From Fidelibacterota bacterium (lineage in GTDB: Bacteria > Fidelibacterota > UBA8477 > JABMPR01), in contig JABHBL010000056.1 in NCBI GenBank assembly GCA_018673925.1, positions 69,256 to 133,255 on the forward strand: 64,000 nucleotides of DNA. The letters are read 5' to 3'. Below the pieces are notes generated by a model, which saw nothing but the letters and a program-made list of their open reading frames with translations, was not told where the DNA came from and made no database searches. Position numbers and translations under genes: made by a program. This document shows positions 15,658 to 33,703 of this stretch, piece by piece (position 1 is the stretch's first letter; every line of letters begins with the position of its first letter).

Positions 15658-17307
15658 ATGACATATAACTCCTTTTCCCTCTCTGGAAGCATTGTTGATG
15701 TTTTAAATCAACGCATTTTCCCTGGAACCATTCATGTTGAAAATGGCAGAATCACGTCTGTCGCAGAAGAATCAGTTTCAGAAACACATCTTATACTTCC
15801 AGGACTCATCGATGCCCATATTCATATTGAAAGCTCCATGCTGGTGCCCACCGAATTTGCTCGTGCAGCAGTTGTTCATGGCACCGTGGCCACAGTTTCT
15901 GATCCACACGAAATAGCCAATGTTCTCGGGATGCGTGGAGTTGATTTCATGTTGTCCAATGCAGAGCAATCACCTTTTAAATTTCATTTCAGCGCACCTT
16001 CCTGCGTCCCAGCGACTCCCTTTGAAACGGCAGGTGCAGAGTTGTCCGCACCTGAAATAGAAACTCTCTTGCAACGACCAGATATTGTCAGTCTATCAGA
16101 AATGATGAATGTACCTGGAGTTTTGAATGACGCTGAGGATGTGAATGAGAAATTAAGACTCGCCCGCATTGCTGGAAAAGTCGTTGATGGACACGCACCG
16201 GGATTACGAGGTGAAGCGGTTAAGAAGTATGTTGAGGCCGGCATTACAACCGATCATGAATGTTTCAGCCTGGCGGAAGCTTTGGAAAAATTGTCCCTGG
16301 GTATGCAAGTGCAGATTCGGGAAGGATCCGCAGCTCGCAACCTGGATGATCTCATTCCCTTGCTTGATGAGCATTATAAGAATTGTATGCTTTGCAGCGA
16401 TGACAAGCATCCTGATGATCTGGCTGAAGGGCACATAAATGAGATGGTAAAACGAGCCATCGCCGCAGGAATTGATCCACTCAAGGTCTTATGGAGCGCT
16501 TCGGTTACACCGGTAAAAACATATAAACTGGATATTGGTCTCATGCAAACGGGTGATCCGGCAGACCTGATTCTTGTTGACGATTTTGATAATTTTCAGG
16601 TCAAAGCGACTTATATCAATGGTGAACTCATGGCTGAAAATGGCACAACAAAACTGAGTTCTCAGGTCGTTGAGCCAATAAATAAGTTTGAAGCAGCTCT
16701 CCAGACACCCCAGCTCTTTGGAATTAAATCAAGCCAGGACCAAGTACCTGTTATAGATGTTATTGATGGGCAATTGGTCACTAAGAAATATTCGTGGCAC
16801 CCAACATTAAACTCTGATGGCTTCATTGAGCCAAATATTGAGGAAGATATCCTTAAAATCGCCGTTTTAAATCGCTACTCCCTCTCGAAACCCGCTGTTG
16901 CCTTAATTCGAAATTTTGGATTAAAGGAGGGTGCCATTGCCTCATCCGTTGCCCATGATTCCCACAATATTGTTGCTGTAGGAACCTCGAATGAAGATCT
17001 GGCGAAAGCTATGAATCTTATTATCCAGAACCAGGGTGGTATCTCAGCGGTAACCAAGAAGACTGAACATGTCCTCCCCCTACCAGTCGCTGGGATTATG
17101 TCAGATGATGATGCTTTCAGGGTAGGTGTAAGCTATGGTGAAATGGATGACCTTGCCAAGGAGATGGGATCCCAATTGGGTGCTCCCTACATGACACTGT
17201 CCTTTATGGCACTTCTGGTGATTCCTGACATCAAACTCAGTGACAAGGGTCTTTTTGATGGCACAACATTCCAATTCATAGATGCATTTGAATCGAGTGT
17301 GGGATGA
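15658..17307 (+). CDS. ade: Adenine deaminase
   Basis: 549 aa. Amidohydrolase metal site LPGLIDAHIHIESSM. Length and architecture match Ade-type adenine deaminases. Confidence 0.9.
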   Translation: MTYNSFSLSGSIVDVLNQRIFPGTIHVENGRITSVAEESVSETHLILPGLIDAHIHIESSMLVPTEFARAAVVHGTVATVSDPHEIANVLGMRGVDFMLSNAEQSPFKFHFSAPSCVPATPFETAGAELSAPEIETLLQRPDIVSLSEMMNVPGVLNDAEDVNEKLRLARIAGKVVDGHAPGLRGEAVKKYVEAGITTDHECFSLAEALEKLSLGMQVQIREGSAARNLDDLIPLLDEHYKNCMLCSDDKHPDDLAEGHINEMVKRAIAAGIDPLKVLWSASVTPVKTYKLDIGLMQTGDPADLILVDDFDNFQVKATYINGELMAENGTTKLSSQVVEPINKFEAALQTPQLFGIKSSQDQVPVIDVIDGQLVTKKYSWHPTLNSDGFIEPNIEEDILKIAVLNRYSLSKPAVALIRNFGLKEGAIASSVAHDSHNIVAVGTSNEDLAKAMNLIIQNQGGISAVTKKTEHVLPLPVAGIMSDDDAFRVGVSYGEMDDLAKEMGSQLGAPYMTLSFMALLVIPDIKLSDKGLFDGTTFQFIDAFESSVG

Positions 17308-17317
17308 TAGATATGAT

Positions 17318-17350
17318 CTTTTTACAACGAATTTTACGAATGAGACGAAC
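17318..17350. repeat. Left inverted repeat flanking GxxExxY cassette 1 (three ACGAA pentamers at 9-nt period)
   Basis: CTTTTTACAACGAATTTTACGAATGAGACGAAC. Its reverse complement matches 17786-17819 at about 25 of 33 positions, including a perfect 13-mer TTTTACAACGAAT. Confidence 0.8.
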
Positions 17351-17379
17351 TGGGTTTTATAGATAACAGCCCAACTAAC

Positions 17380-17775
17380 ATGAAACCCATCTTATACAAA
17401 GAGCTAACAGATACCATCATCAAGATTGCTATTGAGGTTCAAAAGGAACTTGGCCTCGGCTTTTTCGAACGTGTCTATGAGAATGCCCTGATTATTGCCC
17501 TTCAAGAAGAAGGCTTGGTGGTCGATCAACAGAAACAATTTGATGTCTATTTCCGGGGTCACAACGTCGGTGTTTATATTGCGGATTTATTGGTAGAAGA
17601 GAAAATCATTCTTGAAATTAAGGCAGTTGATAATATTTCCAGGTCACACTATGCTCAACTGATTAATTACCTAAAAGCATCTGACAAAGAAGTTGGCTAT
17701 GTCATTAACTTTGGACGAATTCCACTCCAGTTCAAGCGCCTTGCCAAAACAAACCAAGCTGGTGAGGAGACTTAA
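17380..17775 (+). CDS. GxxExxY-family protein (PD-(D/E)XK nuclease-like fold)
   Basis: 131 aa. Name-giving motif GLGFFERVYENAL. D...E-x-K core (ADLLVEEKIILEIKA). Confidence 0.85.
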   Translation: MKPILYKELTDTIIKIAIEVQKELGLGFFERVYENALIIALQEEGLVVDQQKQFDVYFRGHNVGVYIADLLVEEKIILEIKAVDNISRSHYAQLINYLKASDKEVGYVINFGRIPLQFKRLAKTNQAGEET

Positions 17776-17785
17776 GCAATCATGT

Positions 17786-17819
17786 CTTTCGTTATTTTCG
17801 TCAGATTCGTTGTAAAAGA
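17786..17819. repeat. Right inverted repeat flanking GxxExxY cassette 1 (three TTCGT pentamers at 9-nt period)
   Basis: CTTTCGTTATTTTCGTCAGATTCGTTGTAAAAGA, the inverted partner of 17318-17350. Confidence 0.8.
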
Positions 17820-17864
17820 GAACGCTTTTCTTAAACTCAATTCGGAAAATGATAAATAAATAAT

Positions 17865-20129
17865 ATGTCGAAATCCACTCAGATAATTGGTGCCAGACTT
17901 AAACGCGATGATGCTCGTGGTAAGACCACAGGTGAAACCAAGTTTCTTACTGATATCAAAGTAGATAACATGCTGCATGCTGCCCCCGTATTTTCACAGG
18001 TAGCTTATGGCAAGCTCCTTGGGATTGATACTCGTGTCGCTGAAAATGACCCCGATTATATAGCTTTTTTCTCAGCAAAGGATATTCCTGGTGAAAATCA
18101 AGTCGGGGTGATTCTGGAAGACCAACCGCTAATGGCTGCTGATGTTGTTCGCTATGTTGGTGACAGTGTGGGCATTCTCATTGCCGAAACGGCTGAAGCA
18201 GCTCAACGACTGGCCAGGCTTGTCAGTGTAAACATTGATCCCTTTGATCCGGTTTTTTCCATTGATGAGAGTCGTAATGCTAAAGTAAACCTGCTCCATG
18301 AAACCAATTTGGCCTGCCAGCATCAAGTCAAGCGTGGAGACCCTGATAAAGCATTCGCTGAAGCAGACCATGTTATTGAAGCGAGATTTGAAACCCCCTT
18401 TCAAGAACACTATTATCTTGAGCCGCAAGCTTGCATTGCTCAGTGCAGCCCTGATGGTAGTATTGATATTTTGGGATCAATTCAGTGTCCCTTCTATGTT
18501 CAAAAAGCAGTTTCGAAAGCGTTGGCTATCCCCTTTTCAAAAATCCGGGTAGAGCAATCTCCTACAGGTGGTGCCTTCGGGGGTAAAGAAGATATTCCCT
18601 CAGAGACCTGCACTCGAGTAGCATTAGCAGCTCTGCTTCTCAAGCGATCCATTAAAATGGTATATGATCGAACCACTGATGTTCAACTTACCAGCAAGCG
18701 CCACCCCTTTCAAATGTACTACAAGGTGGGTGTATCAAAATCCGGAAAGTTACTGGCTGCAGAAATCAAGCTGGAAGAAAATGCAGGAGCCTACGCCACA
18801 TTGTCATCTGTGGTCTCTTATCGCTCGGCCATGCAGGCTATGGGGCCGTATGTTATAGACAACATCTCTGTAGAGTCTAAATCCTATTATACCAATCTGC
18901 CCCCTACTGGAGCTTTCCGGGGATTCGGCTCCCCCCAGGCTGCGTTTGGCCATGAACGTATGATGGATGTCATTGCCGAGAAGCTGAATATGGACCCCAT
19001 AGAGATACGTTTACAAAACATCTTGAAAGTCGACACATCAACGCTCACAGGTCATCACCTAAAAAGCAGTGTTGGGGCTGAAGAAACCCTGGTAACAGCG
19101 GCCAGTGCCTGTGATTGGTCAAATCGAAAATCAAACGATGATTCTCGTTGGAAAACTGGCTATGGGGTTTCTCTCATACATTATGGGAATTGTCTGGGTG
19201 CTGCTGGCTGGTTTATGGATGGCAGCGGCGTCAAGATCAAGATCCACCGTGATGGTTCCATCTCAGTCGCATTTGGTCTCATCGAAATGGGACAAGGAGC
19301 GCTCAGCGTCGTCCAGCAAATGACTGCGGAAGCCCTGGGAGTGGAGCCTTCGAGAATTACTGTTTTACCCACAGATACTGAACAGGTACCTGATAGTGGT
19401 CCTTCAGTCGCCAGCAGAAATGTAGTCATGACGGGAAACGCAATTCGGGATGCGGCGAGCAAATTACTACCCATCCTGAAAGAAGCTGCCGCTGAACTCA
19501 TGCAGTGCGATCTGAATGAAATCAATATCGAGTATGGGGCAGTAAGTAATATTCGGAATGGTGAAACGCTGAGTTTTGCGGAGCTCAGTAATTATCTCTA
19601 CTTGTCCAACCGCCCCATGGATGTCTTGGGCTGGTGGCATGTGCCAGAACTTGATTATGATGCAGTAAATGGAGTTGGTGAGGCCTACTTCACCTATTCT
19701 TATGCTACTCATATCGCTCGAGTCAATGTTGATACGCTCACTGGTCAGGTCAAGGTGGATAAAATTTGGGCTTCCCATGATGTGGGAAGAGCCATTAACC
19801 CTGCTGGCCTGGAGGCTCAAATTGAAGGAGGAACTGCCCAGGGAATTGGCTGGGCTTTAACAGAGCATTTCAAAGTTGAGGGAGGTAAAGTCTTAACTGA
19901 CAATCTCACTACCTATCTTTTACCAACAGCTCTTGATGTTGGTGCAATCGAATCAATCCTAGTGGAAGATCCTGAACCTGAGGGTCCCTGGGGTGCTAAA
20001 GGTATCGGTGAGCCAGCCATCATTCCAACAGCTGCAGCTATAACCAATGCTGTGAGTAATGCCTTGGGGATATCAGTTGCTCATATTCCCATAACGCCTG
20101 AATACATTTTAGAAATGGTAGGTGAATGA
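17865..20129 (+). CDS. Xanthine dehydrogenase/aldehyde oxidase family molybdopterin-binding large subunit
   Basis: 754 aa. Family motifs GGAFGGKE, FRGFGSPQ, GEPAIIPTAAAITNA. Its stop overlaps the start region of ssnA. Confidence 0.9.
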   Translation: MSKSTQIIGARLKRDDARGKTTGETKFLTDIKVDNMLHAAPVFSQVAYGKLLGIDTRVAENDPDYIAFFSAKDIPGENQVGVILEDQPLMAADVVRYVGDSVGILIAETAEAAQRLARLVSVNIDPFDPVFSIDESRNAKVNLLHETNLACQHQVKRGDPDKAFAEADHVIEARFETPFQEHYYLEPQACIAQCSPDGSIDILGSIQCPFYVQKAVSKALAIPFSKIRVEQSPTGGAFGGKEDIPSETCTRVALAALLLKRSIKMVYDRTTDVQLTSKRHPFQMYYKVGVSKSGKLLAAEIKLEENAGAYATLSSVVSYRSAMQAMGPYVIDNISVESKSYYTNLPPTGAFRGFGSPQAAFGHERMMDVIAEKLNMDPIEIRLQNILKVDTSTLTGHHLKSSVGAEETLVTAASACDWSNRKSNDDSRWKTGYGVSLIHYGNCLGAAGWFMDGSGVKIKIHRDGSISVAFGLIEMGQGALSVVQQMTAEALGVEPSRITVLPTDTEQVPDSGPSVASRNVVMTGNAIRDAASKLLPILKEAAAELMQCDLNEINIEYGAVSNIRNGETLSFAELSNYLYLSNRPMDVLGWWHVPELDYDAVNGVGEAYFTYSYATHIARVNVDTLTGQVKVDKIWASHDVGRAINPAGLEAQIEGGTAQGIGWALTEHFKVEGGKVLTDNLTTYLLPTALDVGAIESILVEDPEPEGPWGAKGIGEPAIIPTAAAITNAVSNALGISVAHIPITPEYILEMVGE

Positions 20130-20130
20130 G

Positions 20131-21441
20131 ATGGAACAGCTTTTATTACACAATTTGCACATCATTGATCCTTTTGGCGAACGAGAATTTCTGGAACATG
20201 CTTCCATTCTCATTGAAGATGAAGTCATCAAGTTTGTCGGTCGAGGTTTCTCACATGTTGGCTTTGAGGGACAAATATTGGACATGGAGGGTAAAATAGT
20301 TTTACCTGGAATTATCAATGCCCACACTCACCTATACTCAACACTGGCCATGGGAATGCACCCACCTCAAAAATCACCAAAAAATTTCGTTGAACATCTC
20401 GAAGAGGTCTGGTGGAAATTAGATCGTGGACTGGATAAGGCATCTGTGCTGGCCTCCTTTGAAGCCGGGCTCATGGATTGCATTCAGAATGGTACCACAA
20501 CCATTATTGATCATCACGCCAGTCCAAACCTTGTTGAGGGTTCTTTAGATCTACTGGCAAAGGTAGCGGAATCGTTCGGCATGAATATCAGTCTTTGTTT
20601 TGAGAGCTCAGACAGAAACGGTGAGGCGAACTTTAAGGATGAACTCTCAGAAAATATACGCGCCATAAGAAAATACACCTCAAATCCTTACATCTCACCC
20701 CGCCTCGGACTGCACGCTTCTTTTACGCTTTCAGATGAATCTTTAGAAAGAGTGAGCAAAGCTCTGAAGGATTTCCCTGATTGCGGTATTCATATCCATG
20801 TTGCTGAGGACCTTGCTGACGAAAAGGATGCCCAGGCCAGAGGATATCGTTCAGTAATTCAGCGGTTGGATGATTTTAATCTACTCTCCAATCAATCTCT
20901 GATTATTCATGGCATCTTTATGACACGCGAGGATCGACATATCTTGCTAAAACATGGCTGCAAGCTGGTTCATAATCCGACATCAAATGCAAATAATCAG
21001 GTTGGCGTACTGGAGACTGAGATTATCGAATCCATGGGTCCAGGTTTGGGAACCGATGGCATGCAGAACAACATGCTCAAAGAAGCCAAAGAAGGTACAC
21101 TGGTACGAGCCGCCACAGAAAGTCCATCAGTTGACTATCTGGAGCTCCTCTTTCAGAATAATCCCGATATTGCTGTAAAAATATTCGGAAAATTAATAGG
21201 ACACATTGAGGAAGAAGCCCAGGCTGATCTGGTATTTTATGATTATGATTCTCGAACAGAGTTAAATGCAGACAATTATGGTGCTCACCTGCTCTTTGGA
21301 CTGGGGAAACCTTCAGATGTCATGACTCGGGGAAGATTTCGTCTGCGTAACCAACAACTGGTAGGAATGGATGAGTCCCGTATTCGTGAGAATGCTCGCA
21401 AGCAAAGCAAACGACTTTGGGCGGCAATGAAAGTACTCTAA
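20131..21441 (+). CDS. ssnA: SsnA-type putative aminohydrolase (selenium-metabolism-linked amidohydrolase family)
   Basis: Amidohydrolase HxH (NAHTHLYS). Blocks VWWKLDRGLD and TTIIDHHASP match E. coli SsnA as I recall it. ATG at 20131 is preferred (AGGTGA RBS) over the track's GTG at 20122. Confidence 0.85.
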   Translation: MEQLLLHNLHIIDPFGEREFLEHASILIEDEVIKFVGRGFSHVGFEGQILDMEGKIVLPGIINAHTHLYSTLAMGMHPPQKSPKNFVEHLEEVWWKLDRGLDKASVLASFEAGLMDCIQNGTTTIIDHHASPNLVEGSLDLLAKVAESFGMNISLCFESSDRNGEANFKDELSENIRAIRKYTSNPYISPRLGLHASFTLSDESLERVSKALKDFPDCGIHIHVAEDLADEKDAQARGYRSVIQRLDDFNLLSNQSLIIHGIFMTREDRHILLKHGCKLVHNPTSNANNQVGVLETEIIESMGPGLGTDGMQNNMLKEAKEGTLVRAATESPSVDYLELLFQNNPDIAVKIFGKLIGHIEEEAQADLVFYDYDSRTELNADNYGAHLLFGLGKPSDVMTRGRFRLRNQQLVGMDESRIRENARKQSKRLWAAMKVL

Positions 21442-21480
21442 GTCGATACCTAAGTAATTGAATAGAAAGACACAGACAGA

Positions 21481-22713
21481 ATGAAGATTGATTTTGCACA
21501 AATACTCAACCAGGCAGAAAAATATCGACCAGAGATTTCCAGGTTTTTGAGAGACATGATTGCCATCCCCAGCGAAAGCACCCAGGAAGAACAGGTCATC
21601 TTGCGTATCAAGGAAGAGATGGAAAAAGTTGGATTCGATAAGATTGAGATTGATGAGATGGGTAATATATATGGCACCATCGGTCATGGCTCCCATGTCA
21701 TCGCCATGGATGCACATATTGACACGGTAGGTGTGGGTAATCTAGAAAACTGGGATGTGGATCCCTATGAAGGTTTTGAGGATGATGAAATCATCATGGG
21801 TCGGGGAGCCTCCGATCAAGAAGGTGGTATGGCCAGTATGGTTTACGCTGGAAAAATTATCAAGGATCTTGATCTTGAAGCTGACTACACGCTGGTGATT
21901 ACCGGTACTGTTCAGGAAGAGGATTGTGATGGGTTGTGCTGGCAGTACATCATGGATAATAAGAAGATTCAACCTGAATTTGTGGTTAGCACGGAGCCAA
22001 CCTCATGCAGAATTTATCGTGGTCAACGTGGACGCATGGAAATCAAGGTCACTACCTCGGGGATCAGCGCACATGGTTCAGCACCGGAACGGGGTGATAA
22101 TGCTATCTACAAGATGGCCCCAATTCTCCTGGAGCTTCAAGAGTTAAATACACGCCTGGCAGACCATGACTTTCTCGGGAAAGGTTCTTTGACAGTATCC
22201 GAGGTGTTTTTTACCTCCCCTTCTCGTTGCGCAGTAGCTGATGGTTGTTCAATTTCTGTGGATCGTCGTCTAACAGTTGGCGAAACTGCAGAGTCGGCAT
22301 TGGATGAAATCAAGAATCTACCCTCGGTAAAGGCCGGGAAAGCAATAGTGGAGATGTATGACTACGAGCGACCGAGTTATACAGGTTTCAGCTATCGTAC
22401 AGAGGCCTATTTCCCAACCTGGCTGATAGAAGAAGATCATGTGGCAACCACATCCCTGGTTGATTCCTACAAAGGGTTGTTCAAAGAGGAACCCGTGGTT
22501 GATAAGTGGACTTTTTCGACCAATGGTGTGGCTATTATGGGAAAATATGGTGTGCCCTGTATTGGTTTTGGTCCTGGAGCCGAAGAAGAAGCACATGCCC
22601 CCAATGAAAAAACCTGGAAAGATCATCTGGTAAAGGCTGCAGCGATGTATGCTACAATACCACTGGCATATTTGAACCAATTGGACAACAATGCAATGAG
22701 ATCAAGAAATTAA
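21481..22713 (+). CDS. ygeY: YgeY-family M20 peptidase/hydrolase (selenium-metabolism-linked)
   Basis: Long collinear similarity to E. coli YgeY as recalled ([67 protein letters not shown]). Confidence 0.9.
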
Positions 22714-22722
22714 GGGATTGTC

Positions 22723-22792
22723 TTCACCCTTCGAGAACCTCAGGGAGCCAATCCGTGTGTGTCTTGCTGAGCCTGTCGAAGTATGCGCACAC
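22723..22792. repeat. Intergenic palindromic repeat cluster R1 (unit A, a partial inverted unit B, and a full unit B)
   Basis: Unit A TTCACCCTTCGAGAAC (22723-22738). Partial inverted unit B CTTCGAGAACCTCAG (22729-22743). Unit B GTGTCTTGCTGAGCCTGTCGAAG (22759-22781). Related copies lie at 23978-24000, 25545-25567 and 25606-25628. Confidence 0.75.
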
Positions 22793-22806
22793 TTATTAGG
22801 AGCAAC

Positions 22807-23961
22807 ATGAAAGAAAACATCGACAAAATTAAATCCCTGAATCTAGAAAACTATGGTCACGATTTTCTGCTGACATGGAACAAAACCCCAGATGAACTAG
22901 AAGCAACCTTGCTCATGGCAGAACTCTTGAAAGAGCGACACCGACAGGGAAAACCGAACCTGGTTTTTGACTCGGGCCTCGCAGTTTCAATCTTCAGAGA
23001 CAACTCCACAAGGACTCGCTTCAGCTTTGCCTCGGCAGCCAATGCACTGGGACTGGCTGTCTCTGATATGGATGAGGAGAAATCCCAAGTTTCTCACGGC
23101 GAAACAGTTCGAGAAACAGCCAATATGATTTCATTTATGACACGTGTGATTGGTATACGAGATGACATGTATCTTGGAGAAGGTCATAGCTATATGAAAG
23201 AAGTATCCGCAGCTGTACAGGCTGGATTTGAGGAAGGCGTTTTACACAACAGGCCGGGTCTTATCAATCTTCAATGCGATATTGACCATCCTACCCAAAG
23301 CATGTCGGACCTGGCCATGTTAAAAAACTATTTTGGATCGCTGGACAACCTGAAAGGAAAGAAGATTGCTATGTCATGGGCTTATTCACCCAGCTATGGT
23401 AAACCCCTTTCTGTCCCCCAGGGTATTATTGGATTACTCACACGTTATGGAATGGATGTTACTCTGGCGCACCCTGAAGGCTACAGCCTCATTCCAGAGG
23501 TAGTTAAATTAGCAGATAAACAGGCGCAGGTCTCAAGTGGATCCTTTCAGATCACCAATAGCATGGATGAGGCTTTTTCTGGTGCCGATATCGTTTACCC
23601 AAAATCCTGGGCACCTTTCGACGTCATGGAAGAAAGAACGACCTTGCTAAAGCAGGGTGATCAAGCAGGACTAAAAGGGTTAGAGAAGAGCTGTCTCACC
23701 AACAATGCAAAATTCACCGACTGGGAATGTACTGAAGACAAAATGAAACTCACAAAAGGTGGTGAGGCCTTGTACATGCATTGTCTGCCCGCGGATATCA
23801 CCGGAGTGAGTTGCGAGCAGGGAGAGGTGAGTGCATCAGTTTTCGACAAGTACCGCAGAGATACCTATCTGGAGGCCAGTTATAAACCATTTATCATTGC
23901 GGCTATGATGTTTTTGACAAGTCAAAAACATCCGCTTTCGGCTTTGGACAAATTGGCCTAG
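22807..23961 (+). CDS. ygeW: Knotted carbamoyltransferase YgeW
   Basis: Near-collinear match to E. coli YgeW as recalled (DFLLTW..TPDEL, FRDNSTRTRFS, HGETVRETANMISF, NLQCDIDHPTQSM, WAYSPSYGKPLSVPQGIIGL, YMHCLPADI.GVSC). ATG at 22807 follows AGGAG. The track's ATG at 22783 lies inside repeat R1. Confidence 0.92.
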   Translation: MKENIDKIKSLNLENYGHDFLLTWNKTPDELEATLLMAELLKERHRQGKPNLVFDSGLAVSIFRDNSTRTRFSFASAANALGLAVSDMDEEKSQVSHGETVRETANMISFMTRVIGIRDDMYLGEGHSYMKEVSAAVQAGFEEGVLHNRPGLINLQCDIDHPTQSMSDLAMLKNYFGSLDNLKGKKIAMSWAYSPSYGKPLSVPQGIIGLLTRYGMDVTLAHPEGYSLIPEVVKLADKQAQVSSGSFQITNSMDEAFSGADIVYPKSWAPFDVMEERTTLLKQGDQAGLKGLEKSCLTNNAKFTDWECTEDKMKLTKGGEALYMHCLPADITGVSCEQGEVSASVFDKYRRDTYLEASYKPFIIAAMMFLTSQKHPLSALDKLA

Positions 23962-24006
23962 TGTGATGTGTCTGATACTTCGAGAGCCTCAGCATGACAC
24001 ATCCAC
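23961..24006. repeat. Intergenic palindromic repeat R2 (inverted unit B inside an 8-bp-stem hairpin)
   Basis: GATGTGTC (23965-23972) pairs with GACACATC (23996-24003). The loop contains CTTCGAGAGCCTCAGCATGACAC (23978-24000), which is the reverse complement of unit B with 1 mismatch to the 25545 copy. Confidence 0.75.
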
Positions 24007-24065
24007 TTAATGCTTTTAAGACAAACAAATCCGCATAGATCGCGGCTTCTGAAAGAAAGTAAAAA

Positions 24066-25529
24066 ATGAACACTGCACAAATTCTTAAAAACACGATTCA
24101 ACGCTGCAAAGACAATAACATTATACTACCTACTTATAAGCAGATGGCTGACCCAGATTTGATTCCTGAAGGCATCAAGGTAGAACTATCCAATATTGGT
24201 TTGTGGGATCTGAATCCCCGGAATCTTTTCCGTTTGACCTGGCAAAACGAGCCAGTCAGCAAAGGCGGTGGTTTTGGTGAGGTCAACTATATCGAACTAC
24301 CATCAGAATTGACTGGGGTAAAGGCCAGAATCATTGTTCTTGTTGGAAAATTCTTCCCAACGGGTGCCCACAAAGTTGGTGCAACCTTTGGTCCTCTTGT
24401 TGAAAAATTGATCACCGGTCAATTTGATCCAACACGTCAAAAAGCCCTTTGGCCATCCACTGGAAACTATTGTCGTGGTGGTGCCTACGATGGATATCTC
24501 CTGGGTTGCCCCTCTATCGCTGTGCTTCCCGAAGAAATGTCCCGTGAGCGATACGACTGGCTTGAAAAAGTAGGTGCCGAGATCATCCGTACTGAGGGTG
24601 GAGAAGCCAATGTAAAAGAAATCTATGACAAGGTGAAAGAGCTTGAAGCAGAGCGAGGCGACGAGATTGTTACCTTGAATCAGTTTGGTGAGATAGGAAA
24701 TCCCTTGTGGCATTATGCAGTTACTGGAAGAGCCATGGAGAAGGTCTTTAATAATCTGAATTCTGGTGAGCAACGTTTTAGCGGAATGTTTTTGACCCAG
24801 GGTTCTGCTGGCACGCTGGGATCAGCTGATTATTTAAGAACCAAATTTCCAAAAATTAAAGTGGGTGCAGGTGAGGCGCTTCAAGTGCCTACACTGCTTC
24901 AAAATGGATACGGAGCCCACCGTATAGAGGGTATTGGCGACAAACATGTCCCCTGGATTCACAACATGAAAAATATGGATATGGTTATCGGTGTTGATGA
25001 CAATATTTCCATGAACTTGATACGTCTTTTTAATGAGACTGAGGGGCATGCATTACTGAAATCTCAAGGAATCGATCCGGATCTTGTGGATAAACTGGAT
25101 TATCTAGGCATTTCAAGCATAGCCAATATTGCTGGTGCCATCAAAATGGCCAAGTATTACGAGTACAATGAAAATGATGTGGTCTTCACAGTGGCTACAG
25201 ATTCAATGGAAATGTATCAGTCCCGGCTCACAGAGTTAAATCAAGAGCAAGGCGACTATACTGAAATTCGTGCTCATGTTGATTTCGAGCGATACTTGCT
25301 GGGATTGGATGATGAGGGAGTGATGGAGTTGAGCTATCGTGATAAAAAGCGCATGCACAATCTGAAATACTTTACCTGGGTGGAGCAACAGGGGAAAACA
25401 GTAGATGAACTGGATGCCCAATGGTATGATGACCATTATTGGTCTTCAAAATTTGCTCTAGCAGATGAATGGGATGAGAAGATTGAAGCGTTTAATGAGG
25501 AGACAGGGTTATTAAAGAAATATACTTAA
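24066..25529 (+). CDS. Fold-type-II PLP-dependent enzyme, long (487 aa) cysteine-synthase/TrpB-like family; specific function unknown
   Basis: Candidate PLP-lysine context FFPTGAHKVGATFGP. Glycine-rich phosphate loop-like GSAGTLG. Long C-terminal extension. Assignment is at superfamily level only. Confidence 0.65.
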   Translation: MNTAQILKNTIQRCKDNNIILPTYKQMADPDLIPEGIKVELSNIGLWDLNPRNLFRLTWQNEPVSKGGGFGEVNYIELPSELTGVKARIIVLVGKFFPTGAHKVGATFGPLVEKLITGQFDPTRQKALWPSTGNYCRGGAYDGYLLGCPSIAVLPEEMSRERYDWLEKVGAEIIRTEGGEANVKEIYDKVKELEAERGDEIVTLNQFGEIGNPLWHYAVTGRAMEKVFNNLNSGEQRFSGMFLTQGSAGTLGSADYLRTKFPKIKVGAGEALQVPTLLQNGYGAHRIEGIGDKHVPWIHNMKNMDMVIGVDDNISMNLIRLFNETEGHALLKSQGIDPDLVDKLDYLGISSIANIAGAIKMAKYYEYNENDVVFTVATDSMEMYQSRLTELNQEQGDYTEIRAHVDFERYLLGLDDEGVMELSYRDKKRMHNLKYFTWVEQQGKTVDELDAQWYDDHYWSSKFALADEWDEKIEAFNEETGLLKKYT

Positions 25530-25540
25530 TTCAGGATTGT

Positions 25541-25630
25541 GATTGTGTCTTGCTGAGGCTCTCGAAGCAAAAGACACAAGCGCTTCTGTTCACCCCTCGA
25601 GAACACTTCGACAGGCTCAGTGTGACACGC
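25541..25630. repeat. Intergenic palindromic repeat cluster R3 (unit B, unit A, inverted unit B)
   Basis: GTGTCTTGCTGAGGCTCTCGAAG (25545-25567). TTCACCCCTCGAGAAC (25589-25604), 15/16 identical to 22723-22738. CTTCGACAGGCTCAGTGTGACAC (25606-25628). The two B units can pair into a long imperfect hairpin. Confidence 0.75.
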
Positions 25631-25667
25631 TTCACCGATGGGCAAATGGTAATAGAAGGAGACTCTA

Positions 25668-26909
25668 TTGATTCCTGAAGCGATTCTTGGATTACGATGT
25701 GACAACTGCAGTTGGGAAGGACCAGCTGAGCCGTTTTCATACTTATGCCCCACCTGCGGGAAAAATCTAGACTTCATCTACGATTATGATCGTATAGCTT
25801 CGTTCTGTGGTCCCCTATCACTAAATAAGGATCATGATGCCTCTATGTGGCGATATCTCCCACTACTTCCCGTGAAGGCAGCTCCTGAAAACAAGTCTCT
25901 CCGTGTAGGTGGAACTCCCTTGGTGGATTTTCCAAAAATCGCAAGAGAGCACAACATTGGTCAACTACAGATCAAAGACGATACGCGCAACCCGTCGGGG
26001 TCTTTAAAGGATCGGGCCAGTGAGTTGGCCATTCAACACGCCAGAGAACTGGGCAAAAATACCATTGTTGCCGCTTCTACAGGTAATGCTGGCTCCTCGC
26101 TTGCTTCACTTTCCGCTTACCATGGAATGAAGAGTATTATTCTGGCACCAGCCACAGCCCCTATTGCCAAACTGACACAAATTCTTCAGCATGGTGCTCA
26201 ACTGGTTCCAGTAGATGCAAATTATGATACAGCATTTGACCTGGCCTTTGAGTGGGCTCAAAAGCATGAGAGTTATTGTCGCAACACAGGGATAAACCCC
26301 ATCCTGGCGGAAGGCAAAAAGACGGTTGCGCTAGAGATTGCTGAGCAAAACGACTGGAAGGTTCCAGATCATTTATTCGTACCGGTTGGTGATGGCTGTA
26401 TCATATCAGGGGTTTATAAAGGATTCTTCGATCTGCTCTCACTCAAATGGATTGATTCTATGCCAGCCATACATGCTGTGCAGGCAGAAGGTTCAGCGGC
26501 CATTGTTGATAGTCTTGCCCAAGAGGGCGACATTCAGTCGGTTTCAGCGGATACCATAGCCGACAGCATCAGTGTGGATCAACCTCGCGATGGTGACAAA
26601 GCGCGACGGGCAATCACCAGAAGTGGTGGCAAAGGCTTTATGGTGAGTGATGATGATATTCTGAGAGCTCAAAAACGACTCTCAGAAACCACAGGAATAT
26701 TTGCAGAACCTGCAGCAGCAGCAGCCTACGCAGGGTTTTTACAAGCAACTCACGCTGGCATTTTTAAAGCTGGGGACCATGTGGTTGTACTCCTCACAGG
26801 ATCAGGACTAAAAGACACAGCAAGCGCTCAAAAATTGCTCAAACCTGTTGAAGCCGTTAAATCGACACTTGTTGATGTTGAAAATTATCTGGAAAAACTC
26901 CAGGGCTAA
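25668..26909 (+). CDS. Threonine-synthase-like PLP enzyme with N-terminal zinc ribbon
   Basis: TTG start 7 nt after AAGGAG. CDNC...CPTC ribbon. PLP-lysine motif NPSGSLKDRAS. STGNAGSS loop. Fold type II. Confidence 0.75.
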   Translation: MIPEAILGLRCDNCSWEGPAEPFSYLCPTCGKNLDFIYDYDRIASFCGPLSLNKDHDASMWRYLPLLPVKAAPENKSLRVGGTPLVDFPKIAREHNIGQLQIKDDTRNPSGSLKDRASELAIQHARELGKNTIVAASTGNAGSSLASLSAYHGMKSIILAPATAPIAKLTQILQHGAQLVPVDANYDTAFDLAFEWAQKHESYCRNTGINPILAEGKKTVALEIAEQNDWKVPDHLFVPVGDGCIISGVYKGFFDLLSLKWIDSMPAIHAVQAEGSAAIVDSLAQEGDIQSVSADTIADSISVDQPRDGDKARRAITRSGGKGFMVSDDDILRAQKRLSETTGIFAEPAAAAAYAGFLQATHAGIFKAGDHVVVLLTGSGLKDTASAQKLLKPVEAVKSTLVDVENYLEKLQG

Positions 26910-26911
26910 GT

Positions 26912-27406
26912 ATGTTATATCATCCCAAACCCCATAACTTTCATCTGGAAGTCACCATCAATGGTGAGCTGGTTCAACGCGAAATTCCAACCCATTTAAG
27001 ACTATTAGATTTTTTAAGAGAGGACCTGGGTCTCACGGGGAGCAAAGAGGGTTGTGGTGAGGGCGAGTGCGGTGCGTGCACAATCATTCTAAACGGACAA
27101 ACTGTAAATTCATGTCTCATCCTGGCTGTGGAAGTCCATGGAGCTTTCATCATAACTATTGAGGGTTTGGCTGATACCCGAGAACTCACTGAGATGCAAA
27201 AGTCTTTTGAAGACCATCATGCCGTCCAGTGTGGATATTGTATCCCTGGCATGGTCCTCACTGGAGAAAAACTCTTGGAACGAAACCCTCATCCCACCAG
27301 AGATGAAATCAAATATGAATTATCCGGTAATATTTGTCGCTGCACTGGTTATCACAAAATTGTGGACGCAATTGAAAAATCCGGGAATGAAGGGGGTGAA
27401 GCGTGA
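26912..27406 (+). CDS. (2Fe-2S)-binding small subunit of an XDH-family molybdoenzyme
   Basis: GCGEGECGACT and QCGYCIPG...CRCTGY cluster motifs. 4-nt GTGA overlap with the next gene. Confidence 0.92.
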   Translation: MLYHPKPHNFHLEVTINGELVQREIPTHLRLLDFLREDLGLTGSKEGCGEGECGACTIILNGQTVNSCLILAVEVHGAFIITIEGLADTRELTEMQKSFEDHHAVQCGYCIPGMVLTGEKLLERNPHPTRDEIKYELSGNICRCTGYHKIVDAIEKSGNEGGEA

Positions 27407-28236
27407 TATTCCACCAACCCACTTCTATTCGCGAATTTATTGAGCTGAGCTCTAGACTTTCAGATCAGTTCATAACGCTTCTAGCAGGCGGAACTGATTT
27501 ATTGCCTCGTTATGAACGTGGTCAAGCCATGCCCGATCATCTCATCGATCTAAAAAAACTGTCTGATCTTTACCATATCAACATCAAAGATGATACAATC
27601 CAGATTGGCGCCTTAACCAGTATCCAGACTATTCAGGACAATCAACTGATCCAATCTGAATTTTCGGCCTTGTATACGGCAGCTGTTGATTTTGCTGGCG
27701 CGCAAATCCGTCATAGAGGAACGATTGGGGGTAACATTGTTAATGCTTCTCCAGCTGGAGATTTGTTGCCGGCACTCTATGCTTTTGAATCCATACTCAC
27801 GCTCATCGGACCAGAGGGCGAGCGACAACTACCAATTCAAAATTTTATCCTGGGTCCTGGAAAAACAGCCTTGAAGCAGAGTGAAATTCTAGTGTCAATC
27901 ACCCTAAAACGAAACGGTTATAAATCAACTTTCCAAAAAGTGGGTCTCAGACAATCTATGGCAATTTCTGTGGCGAATGTGGCCTTTGTTTATTCAGGAA
28001 AAGCCGGTGCTTTTGACCATTTGGAAATAGCCTGCGGATCGGTGGCCCCCACCGTAGCCATCCTGAATAAATTGACCAGTACAATTCTCGATAAAACCAG
28101 CAAACCAGAAGATTGGCCCAAACTGATTGAGGCAGATATTTCGCCCATTGATGATATCAGGGCCACAGCAAAATATCGAAAACAGGTCGTGATCAAATTG
28201 GTACAGGCATTTTTGAAGGGACAACTCGATGTTTAA
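27403..28236 (+). CDS. FAD-binding (CO dehydrogenase flavoprotein-like) medium subunit of an XDH-family enzyme
   Basis: 277 aa. LLAGGTDLLP and RHRGTIGGNIVNASPAGD motifs. C-terminal KYRKQV. Confidence 0.88.
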   Translation: MIFHQPTSIREFIELSSRLSDQFITLLAGGTDLLPRYERGQAMPDHLIDLKKLSDLYHINIKDDTIQIGALTSIQTIQDNQLIQSEFSALYTAAVDFAGAQIRHRGTIGGNIVNASPAGDLLPALYAFESILTLIGPEGERQLPIQNFILGPGKTALKQSEILVSITLKRNGYKSTFQKVGLRQSMAISVANVAFVYSGKAGAFDHLEIACGSVAPTVAILNKLTSTILDKTSKPEDWPKLIEADISPIDDIRATAKYRKQVVIKLVQAFLKGQLDV

Positions 28237-28507
28237 GACGACTAACCGGAAAAAATGGTCTGAAATCAGAGAAAAGGGAAAGTGGAATTATATACTCAAT
28301 TATGGAGTCCTCAGGTTTGGTATATCAACCTGGACCATAATGATGGTATACTTTTGGGTTTTTCAACCCATCGAAGAACGCCTGATATTCACTGTTGTAT
28401 CGCTCATAACTTTCCCCCTGGCAGGCTTAGCATGGGGAAGATGGATGTGGTTTTATCTGGAAAAACTTTACTCAAAATTACCCGACTCCAATGAGGATCA
28501 GAAATAA
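28229..28507 (+). CDS. Small two-helix membrane protein (92 aa), function unknown
   Basis: ATG overlaps the FAD-subunit stop by 8 nt, and its stop is 3 nt before the ygfK ATG. Two hydrophobic helices (ILNYGVLRFGISTWTIMMVYFWVF; LIFTVVSLITFPLAGLAWGRWMWFYL). Confidence 0.55.
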   Translation: MFKTTNRKKWSEIREKGKWNYILNYGVLRFGISTWTIMMVYFWVFQPIEERLIFTVVSLITFPLAGLAWGRWMWFYLEKLYSKLPDSNEDQK

Positions 28508-28510
28508 TTT

Positions 28511-31500: not shown

Positions 31501-31795
31501 GCGCTTACATCTGTCCAAACAAAGCTACCATGAATCAAACACAGGTTACCTGATTTCTGATAACTCCATTCTAATGAAAAACGAAAACTATGAGGCTTCA
31601 GTTATCCACCAAAATGGAGACTACCTTTTCTCGTCTCCCCTGGTTCAGGTCAGTTTTGATGGCGCGTCAAAAAAGCTTAACTTCTTCAAATCAGAAAATG
31701 GAAAAGTAAGTACCCGAGAGCCTCTTGAAATGATTGTACTCTATGAAAATCTTAAAGACCACCCTATACTAGTTGGACACGAATCTCACGAATGA
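28511..31795 (+). CDS. ygfK: YgfK-type large Fe-S flavoprotein ('putative selenate reductase subunit YgfK' family)
   Basis: 1094 aa, collinear with E. coli YgfK as recalled (GPHTQL.QNI, ELKTVQ, STMHGCPP.EIE, VKLNPTLLG, DIPEY, VIGAGPAGL, GGGNTAMD, C-terminal CxxCxxxCxxCxxxCP ferredoxin motifs). Confidence 0.92.
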   Translation: MNDKLYPVSIQHLVKWMLSELNGDQLFGIQKDLFFTPDESDPFRMQRYGQMLETPIGVAAGPHTQLSQNIIAAWLCGARYMELKTVQTLDELEVSKPCIDMQDEGYNCEWSQELKLKQSLDEYLNAWIAVHILKDYLGWNSNQGVGVIFNMSVGYDLAGIMRPNVQQFMDRMENSQDLLNEKLNLIESIYPNIKNLNIPARMTDNITLSTMHGCPPDEIERIATYLIKERKYHTAVKLNPTLLGPEHLRQILNHDLGYEASVVPDEAFEHDLKYPDALNLINNLQTHADKTGVEFGLKLTNTLEVQNHRPVFPENETMMYLSGRALHPISINLAAKLQKDFNGKLDLSFSAGADAFNVADILECNLRPVTTCTDVLKPGGYTRLGQYLDNLQQAMQDAEAENLGKFILGSDDESQDINKSGLNKLMEYAKRVIHNPHYHKHSHHFDSIKTARHLGTFDCISAPCVDACAADQNIPEYLYHTSQGDFDKAFEAIQDTNPLPGVTGNVCDHLCQLKCTRNNYDSPLLIREIKRFVTEHEITKINTPNVSGHGHEVTVIGAGPAGLSCAYFLAKQGIHVDVYESKSFVGGMVSGAIPEFRLSDETINLDIDVLKNLGVNFHFDCPVGPDLYKQIQESSDDVFIGVGAQRALTLGVEGENLSGVLNPLEFLAEVRLGARPDLGQNIAIIGGGNTAMDAARTSLRLAGESATVSVIYRRTMSEMPADIDEIEAALAEGITFHELIAPLSFEGDGQVKQIHCQKMELGEPDASGRRRPVPLDGEFLKFPVDTVIPAIGQAISVDFIGEDDLQVNYATCTTAIPHVYAGGDAVRGASSVINAIGDGQIAARHILHSIEASPARPKNAPRLISIDDLKKKAANREYGITPPLADHDKSKEFPEVHRTLTRAEAIEEASRCLLCDDYCSVCVGVCPNLANLTYMVEPVKYDVHEIEVIGKEQITKNTGYLELNQEPQILNIGDFCNECGNCTTFCPTAGDPYLDKPRLHLSKQSYHESNTGYLISDNSILMKNENYEASVIHQNGDYLFSSPLVQVSFDGASKKLNFFKSENGKVSTREPLEMIVLYENLKDHPILVGHESHE
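31777..31794. repeat. Left inverted repeat of GxxExxY cassette 2 (overlaps the last codons of ygfK)
   Basis: ACACGAATCTCACGAATG with ACGAA pentamers 9 nt apart. Pairs imperfectly with 32247-32265. It encodes the C-terminal HESHE of the YgfK ORF. Confidence 0.65.
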
Positions 31796-31847
31796 ACACA
31801 AATAGTCACAAAAAATACGAAATGTATAGAAAGAATCTGACTGGTGA

Positions 31848-32219: not shown

Positions 32220-32246
32220 AACCCCAATGATTAAAAACCTAAGAAG

Positions 32247-32265
32247 CACTCGTGTAAATTCGTGT
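32247..32265. repeat. Right inverted repeat of GxxExxY cassette 2
   Basis: CACTCGTGTAAATTCGTGT. Its reverse complement ACACGAATTTACACGAGTG matches 31777-31794 with one indel. Confidence 0.65.
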
Positions 32266-32293
32266 GTTATTTTTGCAATTGGTGTCTATTAAA

Positions 32294-33688: not shown

Positions 33689-33703
33689 CTAGTAGGTCAA
33701 ATC

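What the first reader, a model, noticed from the sequence alone, without database searches (positions are those of the whole stretch)
17318..17819. GxxExxY (PD-(D/E)XK-like) ORF inserted between ade and the XDH large subunit, bracketed by ~33-nt inverted repeats of periodic ACGAA pentamers
The 131-aa ORF is unrelated to purine metabolism and interrupts an otherwise functionally coherent operon. It is flanked by CTTTTTACAACGAATTTTACGAATGAGACGAAC (17318-17350) and the inverted copy CTTTCGTTATTTTCGTCAGATTCGTTGTAAAAGA (17786-17819). About 25 of 33 positions are complementary, including a perfect 13-mer. Each arm contains three ACGAA (or TTCGT) pentamers spaced exactly 9 nt apart (17327, 17336, 17345; 17788, 17797, 17806). 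In a polycistronic transcript the arms could pair and loop out the whole ORF, an architecture reminiscent of rRNA intervening sequences excised by RNase III. At the DNA level they resemble terminal inverted repeats or iterated protein-binding sites of a small mobile cassette that encodes only a nuclease-fold protein.
Basis: seen in the sequence. Interest (0 to 1): 0.6.

Follow-up and report, generated by a model that had tools for sequence, protein, structure and literature searches.

The report
Repeat-armed GxxExxY nuclease gene cassette
A small, well-conserved nuclease gene of unknown function sits between two purine-breakdown genes of a marine bacterium, boxed in by mirror-image arrays of a 5-base motif spaced every 9 bases; the same arrays occur without any gene throughout the genus, pointing to a widespread nuclease-plus-repeat element that I could not find described in print.

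Summary
ORF 17380-17775 is a GxxExxY / PF13366 PD-(D/E)XK protein. It is bracketed by 30-nt inverted arms, each TTTACA followed by three ACGAA pentamers 9 nt apart.

Comparison with 22 congeners (Neomarinimicrobiota) shows the ade|xdh junction is a hot spot:
- intact cassette in 4 genomes
- gutted cassette in 2
- arm remnants in 3
- a 23S-IVS-type four-helix-bundle cassette with GGTATAAGG arrays in 5-6
- empty in 3

This needs at least 8 state changes on the xdh tree.

The gene is old and under purifying selection (dN/dS 0.04-0.16), with its catalytic residues invariant. Pentamers are 98% conserved. Spacers are not conserved and are not complementary, which argues for phased recognition sites rather than a continuous stem.

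ACGAA arms are a genus-wide repeat (2-59 per genome), mostly ORF-less, in operon spacers. They are most abundant in genomes lacking the cognate gene.

Best reading: a resident nuclease-plus-repeat cassette, closest in design to RAYT/REPIN and Ssn/NTS. RNase III-type excision is neither shown nor excluded.

This scan has reported the same cassette type many times on other DNA. I found no published description.

The parts
17318..17350 (.). Left arm: T-rich run, TTTACA cap, then three ACGAA pentamers starting at 17327, 17336 and 17345 (9-nt phase)
   Evidence: pentamers 98% identical across the 8 arms of 4 orthologous cassettes, spacers 43%
17380..17775 (+). GxxExxY / PDDEXK_3 gene, 131 aa. Motif G27-F-F-E30-R-V-Y33; catalytic D69 and E79-x-K81; Q93
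   Evidence: PF13366 E 4.6e-38, TIGR04256 E 8.1e-39; invariant columns; AF2 pLDDT 91.7; nearest solved folds Cas4, lambda exonuclease, AddAB nuclease, Hjc; dN/dS 0.04-0.16
17786..17819 (.). Right arm: three TTCGT pentamers starting at 17788, 17797 and 17806, then TGTAAA cap and an A-rich run; inverted copy of the left arm
17318..17819 (+). The whole cassette (arms plus gene), co-oriented with the operon, with no promoter or terminator signal of its own
   Evidence: Same cassette at the same junction in G014, G005, G021; no terminator-like site and no promoter excess; no Rfam match; RNA-library contigs bridge ade-Gx-xdh
15658..17307 (+). Upstream host gene: adenine deaminase (ade); stop codon 13 nt before the left arm
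   Evidence: TIGR01178 at 618.9 bits
17865..20129 (+). Downstream host gene: xanthine dehydrogenase-type molybdopterin-binding subunit; start 46 nt after the right arm
   Evidence: PF02738, PF20256, PF01315
31848..32219 (+). Second GxxExxY gene of the genome (45% identical), in the same gene cluster
   Evidence: PF13366 E 1.7e-35
31775..31830 (.). Left arm of the second cassette: CACGAAT-type units every 9-10 nt; overlaps the stop of the upstream YgfK-like gene
   Evidence: orthologue in G021 has three clean TTCGTG units on the right
32240..32290 (.). Right arm of the second cassette (inverted CACGAAT/CACCAAT-type units); overlaps the start of the downstream amidohydrolase ORF

Best explanation
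This is a resident 'nuclease-plus-repeat' cassette. A minimal Cas4/RecB-like PD-(D/E)XK nuclease gene (GxxExxY family) lies between two inverted arrays of three 9-nt-phased ACGAA pentamers capped by TTTACA, and the whole unit is wedged between two co-transcribed purine-catabolism genes.

Shown:
- It is an insertion relative to empty junctions in congeners.
- It has been kept at this site through speciation, under purifying selection on both the protein and the pentamers.
- Gene and arms travel together: the same protein clade with the same arm type occurs at a second site.
- The arms belong to a genus-wide family of mostly gene-less doublets that sit in operon spacers, nest in one another and vary in presence between species.
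- The same junction alternately holds a 23S-IVS-type four-helix-bundle cassette of the same design.

Inferred:
- The nuclease recognises the phased pentamers as DNA (double- or single-stranded) rather than needing a long RNA stem.
- Cutting or binding at such arms underlies the spread, replacement and maintenance of cassettes and doublets.
- The gene is expressed by read-through from the host operon.

In design it works like RAYT/REPIN or Ssn/NTS partnerships, but with a different enzyme fold and a looser present-day link between gene and repeats.
For: - Identity and active site.
- Insertion polymorphism at ade|xdh: intact in 4 genomes, gutted in 2 (37-aa and 9-aa coding remnants), arm remnants in 3, PF05635 cassette in 5-6, empty in 3.
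- At least 8 state changes on the xdh tree. AU tests reject one clade for Gx carriers (p 1e-5), 4HB carriers (p 1.5e-65) and empty sites (p 0.014).
- Old and selected: dN/dS 0.04-0.16 at dS 0.75-1.75, similar to ade and xdh.
- Pentamers 98% identical, cap 84%, spacers 43%; left/right spacer complementarity 8/32.
- Unit behaviour: ACGAA-clade gene with ACGAA arms upstream of htpG in G004 and G020, while the window's own genome has no cassette there.
- Arm-unit type tracks protein clade: 11 changes against a shuffled mean of 20.
- Dispersed doublets. Those with both neighbours known lie between co-directional genes. They are polymorphic and nested at orthologous junctions.
- Generality: 49 of 76 PF13366 loci from many phyla lie between inverted repeats, against 8 of 311 control ORFs.
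- Precedent for nuclease genes framed by the repeats they cut: Ssn (PMC11893778). For RAYT/REPIN: PMC3116915, PMC3733652.
Against: - No biochemical link between this protein and the arms exists.
- ACGAA arms are most numerous in genomes where no ACGAA-clade gene was found (G003 59, G009 44, G011 35, G016 28, against 6-26 in the six carriers). They also occur in G022 and G012, where no PF13366 gene was found at all. These assemblies are 82-95% complete.
- An unrelated four-helix-bundle gene sits in cassettes of the same design, so the arms might be served by something other than the cargo protein.
- No target-site duplication, no excision joint in DNA or RNA contigs, and no near-identical copies that would show recent movement.
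- Alternation at one site could come from homologous recombination between alleles rather than from element-driven insertion.
- Clade-to-arm tracking would also follow from simple co-inheritance.
Confidence: 0.45

Rival explanations
1. RNA-level, IVS-like element. In the polycistronic ade-Gx-xdh transcript the arms pair, and RNase III (or another dsRNA nuclease) cuts the stem. This releases the Gx message and uncouples the flanking cistrons, as for 23S rRNA intervening sequences. The gene-less doublets would then be intercistronic RNA stem-loops that tune mRNA stability.
For: - The arms pair in the minimum-energy and centroid folds of 17300-17835.
- Arm-arm duplex energy is -21.7 to -30.6 kcal/mol in four species, against -6.6 to -9.5 for shuffled arms.
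- Cassettes and doublets lie between co-directional genes.
- The same junction holds the PF05635 IVS-protein cassette in congeners.
- IVS stems are RNase III substrates (PMC4990558).
Against: - Only 9-14 bp at the cap are continuously paired.
- Spacer complementarity is at chance (8/32) and shows no compensatory change, while the pentamers never vary.
- There is no strand asymmetry from G-U pairs.
- The Coxiella IVS stem is 28 bp and near perfect.
- RNA-library contigs bridge both arms with no joint, though contigs cannot show ends.
- The fold z-score of the whole region is -0.21.
Confidence: 0.15
2. The arms are an independent host repeat family: REP-like operon-spacer palindromes or phased binding sites for a host protein. 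The GxxExxY gene (like the four-helix-bundle gene) merely lands in or is captured by such hairpins, and its function is unrelated to the arms, for example defence or repair.
For: - Arms occur in all 23 genomes, far outnumber the genes, are richest where the cognate gene is not found, and are present where no PF13366 gene was found.
- Two unrelated gene families occupy the same kind of hairpin.
- Different arm families stack within one spacer.
Against: - Arm-unit type follows protein clade.
- The same clade carries the same arms at two different sites.
- 64% of PF13366 loci across phyla are framed by inverted repeats of many different unit sequences, against 2.6% of control ORFs. That is hard to obtain by passive landing in host-specific repeats.
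- Gutted cassettes at the orthologous site show that at least some doublets derive from gene-bearing cassettes.
Confidence: 0.2
3. A classical autonomous transposon (a very small IS). The arms are terminal inverted repeats with multiple transposase-binding sites, the GxxExxY protein is the transposase, and the doublets are its MITEs.
For: - Terminal inverted repeats with iterated subterminal sites.
- Insertion polymorphism.
- Gutted derivatives in situ.
- Gene-less doublets in several genomes.
Against: - At most one copy of the ACGAA-clade gene per genome.
- Orthologous copies are as diverged as the host genes and under purifying selection, unlike active IS copies.
- No target duplication was seen.
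- Doublet copies share pentamers but not spacers or loops.
- To my knowledge no transposase consists of a 130-aa PD-(D/E)XK domain alone (TnsA needs TnsB).
Confidence: 0.1

Closest known systems
REPIN / RAYT systems (REP doublets with their REP-associated tyrosine transposase; PMC3116915, PMC3337134, PMC3733652)
   Same: - A gene, at most one copy of its clade per genome, that is vertically kept and under purifying selection.
- It is flanked by inverted copies of a short repeat.
- That repeat is also dispersed in the genome as gene-less inverted doublets, mostly between genes.
   Different: - The enzyme is a PD-(D/E)XK nuclease, not a Y1/HUH transposase.
- The arms are arrays of 9-nt-phased pentamers with non-complementary spacers, not a compact REP hairpin with a GTAG or CGTC tag.
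- In this genus repeat abundance does not follow presence of the cognate gene.
Ssn family: GIY-YIG site-specific ssDNA nucleases framed by NTS/SRM repeats (PMC11893778)
   Same: - A small stand-alone nuclease gene framed on both sides by its own dispersed repeat.
- Different homologues go with different repeat variants.
   Different: - Different fold (GIY-YIG against PD-(D/E)XK).
- Different repeat build (a hairpin against phased pentamer arrays).
- Ssn cleavage of its repeat is demonstrated and 81% of repeat-rich genomes carry the gene. Here cleavage is untested and co-occurrence fails.
ORF-bearing intervening sequences of 23S rRNA (Coxiella burnetii, Leptospira; S23p / PF05635; PMC4990558)
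   Same: - A small ORF in the loop of terminal inverted repeats, inserted in a transcribed unit in the sense orientation.
- Sporadic distribution.
- In congeners the very same junction holds a PF05635 gene in a cassette of the same design.
   Different: - The host is a protein-coding operon, not 23S rRNA.
- The cargo here is PF13366, not PF05635.
- The stem is interrupted (9-14 bp continuous) instead of about 28 bp near perfect.
- RNase III excision is not shown.
TIR transposons with multiple subterminal binding sites and their MITEs (Mu, Tn7 ends; from general knowledge)
   Same: - Inverted ends built from several phased copies of a short site.
- Gene-less derivatives.
- Internal-deletion derivatives in situ.
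   Different: - No recognised transposase.
- No target duplication.
- No multicopy near-identical elements.
- Long vertical residence.

Membership tests
GxxExxY protein family (PF13366 PDDEXK_3 / TIGR04256) | Profile score above the curated cut-off | tested here: met
   PF13366 130.6 bits (cut-off 22); TIGR04256 132.6 bits (cut-off 35)
GxxExxY protein family (PF13366 PDDEXK_3 / TIGR04256) | GxxExxY motif, and PD-(D/E)XK catalytic residues (E, D, ExK) | tested here: met
   G27-F-F-E30-R-V-Y33. E30, D69, E79, K81 and Q93 are invariant in 28 genus paralogues
GxxExxY protein family (PF13366 PDDEXK_3 / TIGR04256) | Restriction-endonuclease-like fold | tested here: met
   AF2 model pLDDT 91.7. Best Foldseek matches are Cas4 SSO0001, lambda exonuclease, AddAB and Hjc, but weak (E about 1e-3, TM 0.42-0.54)
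GxxExxY protein family (PF13366 PDDEXK_3 / TIGR04256) | Nuclease activity | not testable with these tools
   No member has been characterised in the papers I could search
23S rRNA intervening sequence (ORF-bearing IVS) | Inserted in a 23S rRNA helix | tested here: not met
   Lies between ade and xdh coding genes
23S rRNA intervening sequence (ORF-bearing IVS) | Long, near-perfect terminal stem (28 bp in Coxiella) | tested here: not met
   13 bp perfect here, 9-14 bp in orthologues; spacer complementarity 8/32 (PMC4990558)
23S rRNA intervening sequence (ORF-bearing IVS) | Excised from the transcript by RNase III | not testable with these tools
   Only contigs of RNA libraries were available. 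They bridge the cassette and cannot show RNA ends
23S rRNA intervening sequence (ORF-bearing IVS) | Cargo is a PF05635 (S23p) four-helix-bundle ORF | tested here: not met
   Cargo is PF13366. PF05635 occupies this junction in other species: L008 ORF, E 8.9e-28
REPIN / RAYT | Gene encodes a Y1 (HUH) transposase | tested here: not met
   Only PF13366 matched
REPIN / RAYT | Gene flanked by inverted copies of a repeat that is dispersed as gene-less doublets | tested here: met
REPIN / RAYT | Repeat population depends on presence of the cognate gene | tested here: not met
   ACGAA-clade gene found in 6 of 23 genomes. The arm-richest genomes lack it, and arms are present where no PF13366 gene was found. 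Caveat: assemblies are 63-95% complete
REPIN / RAYT | Single copy, vertical inheritance, purifying selection | tested here: met
   At most one ACGAA-clade copy per genome; same site in 4 species; dN/dS 0.04-0.16
Ssn / NTS | GIY-YIG nuclease | tested here: not met
   PF13366 only
Ssn / NTS | Protein cleaves its flanking repeat as ssDNA | not testable with these tools
   Needs biochemistry
Insertion sequence / MITE | Terminal inverted repeats | tested here: met
Insertion sequence / MITE | Target-site duplication | tested here: inconclusive
   No direct repeat is visible outside the arms. Empty sites in congeners are too diverged in the spacer to fix the boundaries
Insertion sequence / MITE | Several near-identical copies per genome | tested here: not met
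   One gene copy per genome; doublets share pentamers but not spacers or loops

The most novel reading that the evidence does not exclude
GxxExxY and four-helix-bundle (IVS-protein) cassettes are two cargo versions of one undescribed class of mobile 'operon-spacer' elements. Their phased-repeat arms are recognised and cut by the element's own small protein. Cassettes home into, replace and nest within one another at intercistronic junctions. Their gutted remains are the gene-less phased-repeat hairpins (and possibly the heptamer tandem repeats) that fill bacterial operon spacers. The classical 23S rRNA intervening sequences would be the subset that landed in rRNA.
Probability: 0.2. Interest if true: 0.8.

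Novelty: new variant of a known kind. Interest (0 to 1): 0.6.

Why it matters
PF13366 is a very common protein family of unknown function, found across many bacterial phyla. The searchable literature holds only passing mentions of it. Its regular packaging between phased inverted repeats gives a concrete, testable hypothesis for its substrate.

This locus adds three things:
- A natural series at one junction within one genus: intact, gutted, replaced and empty.
- Evidence that the pentamers, not base pairing, are what selection keeps.
- A direct genomic link between GxxExxY cassettes and the 23S-IVS protein family.

If the nuclease proves specific for phased short motifs, it would explain a class of unexplained operon-spacer repeats. 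As with Ssn, it might also yield new sequence-specific nucleases.

Tried and rejected
- Whole-region RNA fold: z-score -0.21, uninformative for a 536-nt coding stretch.
- Rfam at E up to 1: nothing.
- Promoter and terminator scan: no terminator, promoters not above shuffles.
- PDB sequence search: nothing relevant.
- Conserved start-codon hairpin (17351-17360 / 17380-17389): not conserved in the orthologues by eye, so dropped.
- Target-site duplication: none seen.
- Coding remnants of Gx in gene-less doublets: found only in the two in-situ gutted copies; all other hits were E >= 0.09. The origin of most doublets from cassettes is therefore not shown.
- G-U strand asymmetry of arm pairing: none.
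- Laying public runs: only contigs were available. There were no joints and no ends. The loose ends at 17787 and 17819 are other copies of the arm elsewhere. A part without processing signal here says nothing either way.
- Gx tree against xdh tree congruence among the four carriers: unresolved.
- Literature searches for GxxExxY, PF13366, TIGR04256, PF05635 and IVS plus nuclease plus inverted repeats gave no description of this architecture.

Full report
**1.

- The sequence at 17318-17819 is as described.
- The repeat finder gives arms 17320-17349 / 17788-17817: 30 nt, 80% complementary, with a perfect 13-mer. At stringent settings this is one of only two inverted repeats in the 64-kb window.
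- ACGAA-N4-ACGAA-N4-ACGAA occurs exactly twice, once per arm in opposite orientation, against 0.00 expected.
- The enclosed ORF (17380-17775, 131 aa) is a GxxExxY / PDDEXK_3 protein: PF13366 E 4.6e-38, TIGR04256 E 8.1e-39.
- It lies between adenine deaminase and a xanthine-dehydrogenase-type molybdopterin subunit, within a large same-strand cluster of purine and selenium-dependent hydroxylase genes (SsnA, YgfK-like, a second XDH set).

**2. The protein**

- In an alignment of 28 paralogues from the genus, G25, G27, E30, E34, Q51, D69, E79, K81, Q93, Y97, N110 and R120 are invariant. This covers the GxxExxY motif plus a complete PD-(D/E)XK site.
- The AlphaFold model is confident (pLDDT 91.7).
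- Its nearest solved folds are Cas4 (SSO0001, Pcal_0546), lambda exonuclease, the AddAB nuclease domain, MGME1 and Hjc. All are weak matches (TM 0.42-0.54).
- So this is a minimal RecB/Cas4-like core. No member has been characterised in the papers I could search.

**3. What sits at the same junction in relatives**

The window is contig C87 of a 3.4-Mb marine MAG. A congener (G004) is 100% identical over 3351 nt to a MAG titled Candidatus Neomarinimicrobiota, so the genus lies in that phylum.

The ade|xdh junction in 19 genomes of the genus:

| State | Loci |
|---|---|
| Intact Gx cassette with ACGAA arms | own genome, G014, G005, G021 |
| Gutted cassette that keeps both arms | L020 (37-aa C-terminal remnant), L014 (9-aa N-terminal remnant) |
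| Arm remnants only | L011, L017, L019 |
| Different cassette: PF05635 '23S rRNA IVS protein' gene (E 8.9e-28) between inverted GGTATAAGG 9-mer arrays | L008, L010, L016, L018, L022; a remnant in L015; L018 also keeps ACGAA remnants |
| Empty (0-24 nt) | L007, L009, L012; two of them with an ATGA stop/start overlap |
| Different 237-nt spacer, not assigned to any of these | L013 |

- On a tree of the adjacent xdh gene these states are interleaved. For example, the 4HB-bearing L008 is sister to the empty L009 (93/92).
- At least 8 state changes are needed.
- AU tests reject a single clade for Gx carriers (p 1e-5), 4HB carriers (p 1.5e-65) and empty sites (p 0.014). These groups were named after the tree was seen.
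- The root is unknown, so gains and losses cannot be told apart. Allele exchange by homologous recombination through the flanks would give the same pattern.

**4. Age and selection**

- Among the four intact orthologous cassettes, dN/dS is 0.04-0.16 at dS 0.75-1.75. This is in the range of ade and xdh themselves.
- The cassette is therefore an old resident whose protein is kept functional, not a recent hop.
- Across the eight arms, the pentamers are 98% identical, the 9-nt cap 84% and the spacers 43%.
- Within each cassette the spacers of the two arms are complementary at 8 of 32 positions, which is chance.
- Selection therefore keeps the pentamers and their 9-nt phase, not a continuous helix.
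- The arms can still pair as RNA (-21.7 to -30.6 kcal/mol against about -8 for shuffles), but with internal loops and no strand asymmetry.

**5. The arms are a dispersed family**

- In the window's own genome, TTTACA-ACGAA-N4-ACGAA-N4-ACGAA arms also form gene-less doublets at C10:82475-82557, C90:5418-5530, C90:5583-5730 and C26:about 23575-23644. There are single or degenerate arms at C42 and C34.
- Every doublet with both neighbours known lies between co-directional genes.
- All 23 genomes of the genus carry such arms: 2-59 per genome, against 0-2 for the reversed control pattern.
- Twenty sampled doublets have the same build with 10-70-nt loops, variable spacers and non-complementary spacers.
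- Genes of the ACGAA clade (>=66% identity) were found in only 6 of 23 genomes.
- The arm-richest genomes lack such a gene (G003 59, G009 44, G011 35, G016 28). G022 and G012 have arms but no detectable PF13366 gene. These assemblies are incomplete (82-95% for those named here).
- Orthologous junctions of two own-genome doublets range from 3-38 nt (empty) to about 670 nt among congeners. They hold several arm families nested in one another.

**6. Gene and arms behave as a unit**

- A 67%-identical ACGAA-clade gene with ACGAA arms lies upstream of htpG in G004 and G020. The window's own genome has no cassette there.
- Across 34 Gx genes of the genus, the arm-unit type follows protein clade: 11 changes against a shuffled mean of 20. 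The types are ACGAA, CGCAGAG, CACGGAT and CGCGAAT, nearly all with a period of about 9 nt.
- The window's second paralogue (31848-32219) has CACGAAT-type arms.
- At another junction, cassettes of three clades replace one another and leave solo arms of earlier occupants beside them.
- In 76 testable PF13366 loci from many phyla, 49 (64%) lie between inverted repeats with score >=12, against 8 of 311 (2.6%) control ORFs in the same loci.
- That agrees with an earlier check in this scan: 62% against about 1%.

**7. Expression**

- There is no terminator-like site, no promoter excess and no Rfam family.
- Contigs from metatranscriptome libraries of three studies run from ade through the cassette into xdh without joints. 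A DNA run shows no excised form.
- Contigs cannot show RNA ends, and DNA carry-over cannot be excluded.

**8. Interpretation**

The best-supported reading is a resident nuclease-plus-repeat cassette whose protein most likely recognises the phased pentamers. In design it is closest to RAYT/REPIN and to the recently described Ssn/NTS pairs, where 42% of ssn homologues are flanked on both sides by their motif.

It fails membership of both families: the fold differs, and the co-occurrence of gene and repeats fails here. It also fails the defining features of a 23S IVS (host site, stem quality, cargo), even though it shares the overall design and the junction with a true IVS-protein cassette.

The steps from 'nuclease' to 'acts on the arms' and from there to 'spread or replacement of cassettes' are inference.

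Rivals that remain open:
- an IVS-like RNA processing role
- arms as an independent host repeat into which small genes land
- a classical mini-transposon

**9. Novelty**

I found no paper describing this architecture. This scan has noted the same cassette type on many other genomes. Later checks there upheld the observation and rated the 'new selfish mobile element' reading at 12-28%.

My own data fit that caution. Turnover is clear at the level of species. Active movement, and a role of the nuclease in it, are not shown.

Noticed in passing
window 31775-32290: Second GxxExxY cassette (ORF 31848-32219, 45% identical) with arms of CACGAAT-type units every 9-10 nt. It lies between a YgfK-like Fe-S/FAD oxidoreductase and an amidohydrolase; the arms overlap the neighbours' stop and start.
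   Followed up: partly
L008:870-1500, and L010, L016, L018, L022 (ade|xdh junction of congeners): A PF05635 '23S rRNA IVS protein' (four-helix-bundle) gene framed by up to ten tandem GGTATAAGG-type 9-mers and their inverted copies occupies exactly the junction that holds the GxxExxY cassette in the window. In L016 the repeat supplies the ade stop codon.
   Followed up: partly
own genome C34:318117-318846 (L023:1300-2500, minus strand): Two tandem PF05635 genes. The second is framed by AATTAGG x3 on one side and inverted ATTCGTA-type heptamers on the other.
   Followed up: no
own genome C10:82475-82557, C26:23575-23644, C90:5418-5730 (outside the window): Gene-less ACGAA doublets in intercistronic spacers of minus-strand gene pairs. 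The orthologous C10 and C26 junctions in congeners vary from 3-38 nt to about 670 nt. The C10 junction, which I inspected, stacks ACGAA, CGCAGAG, GAAATTT and TTCAATT-type repeat arms inside each other.
   Followed up: partly
L119, L035, L040, L047, L039, L045, L028 (one junction in seven genomes): GxxExxY cassettes of three different clades and arm types sit at one and the same junction. Solo arms of other types are left beside them, which looks like serial replacement.
   Followed up: partly
own genome C90:5590-5625; L078 (G005:C108): A small hairpin (TCTGTCTACACC...GGTTTCGAAAGACAG) is nested right after the first pentamer of an ACGAA doublet, at apparently orthologous tandem doublets in two genomes.
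   Followed up: no
own genome C26:23650-23675 and C42:7880-7935: Heptamer tandem repeats lie next to ACGAA arms: CTTCTAA x3 in C26; CTCCTGG and CTTCTGA x8 in C42.
   Followed up: no
window 17121-17198: In two of the four laid runs (one DNA, one RNA library) the assembly graph breaks here into a 78-nt unitig of higher depth (650 against about 450 in the DNA run). In a third run two contigs overlap at 17121-17150. This suggests strain variation or a shared segment in the 3' part of ade.
   Followed up: no
window 17865-37196: The cluster holds two XDH-type large subunits (17865-20129 and 34908-37196), SsnA (20122-21441), an M20 peptidase, a YgeW-like carbamoyltransferase, a YgfK-like protein and FAD/2Fe-2S subunits. 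This is a selenium-dependent purine-catabolism type cluster in a Neomarinimicrobiota MAG.
   Followed up: no
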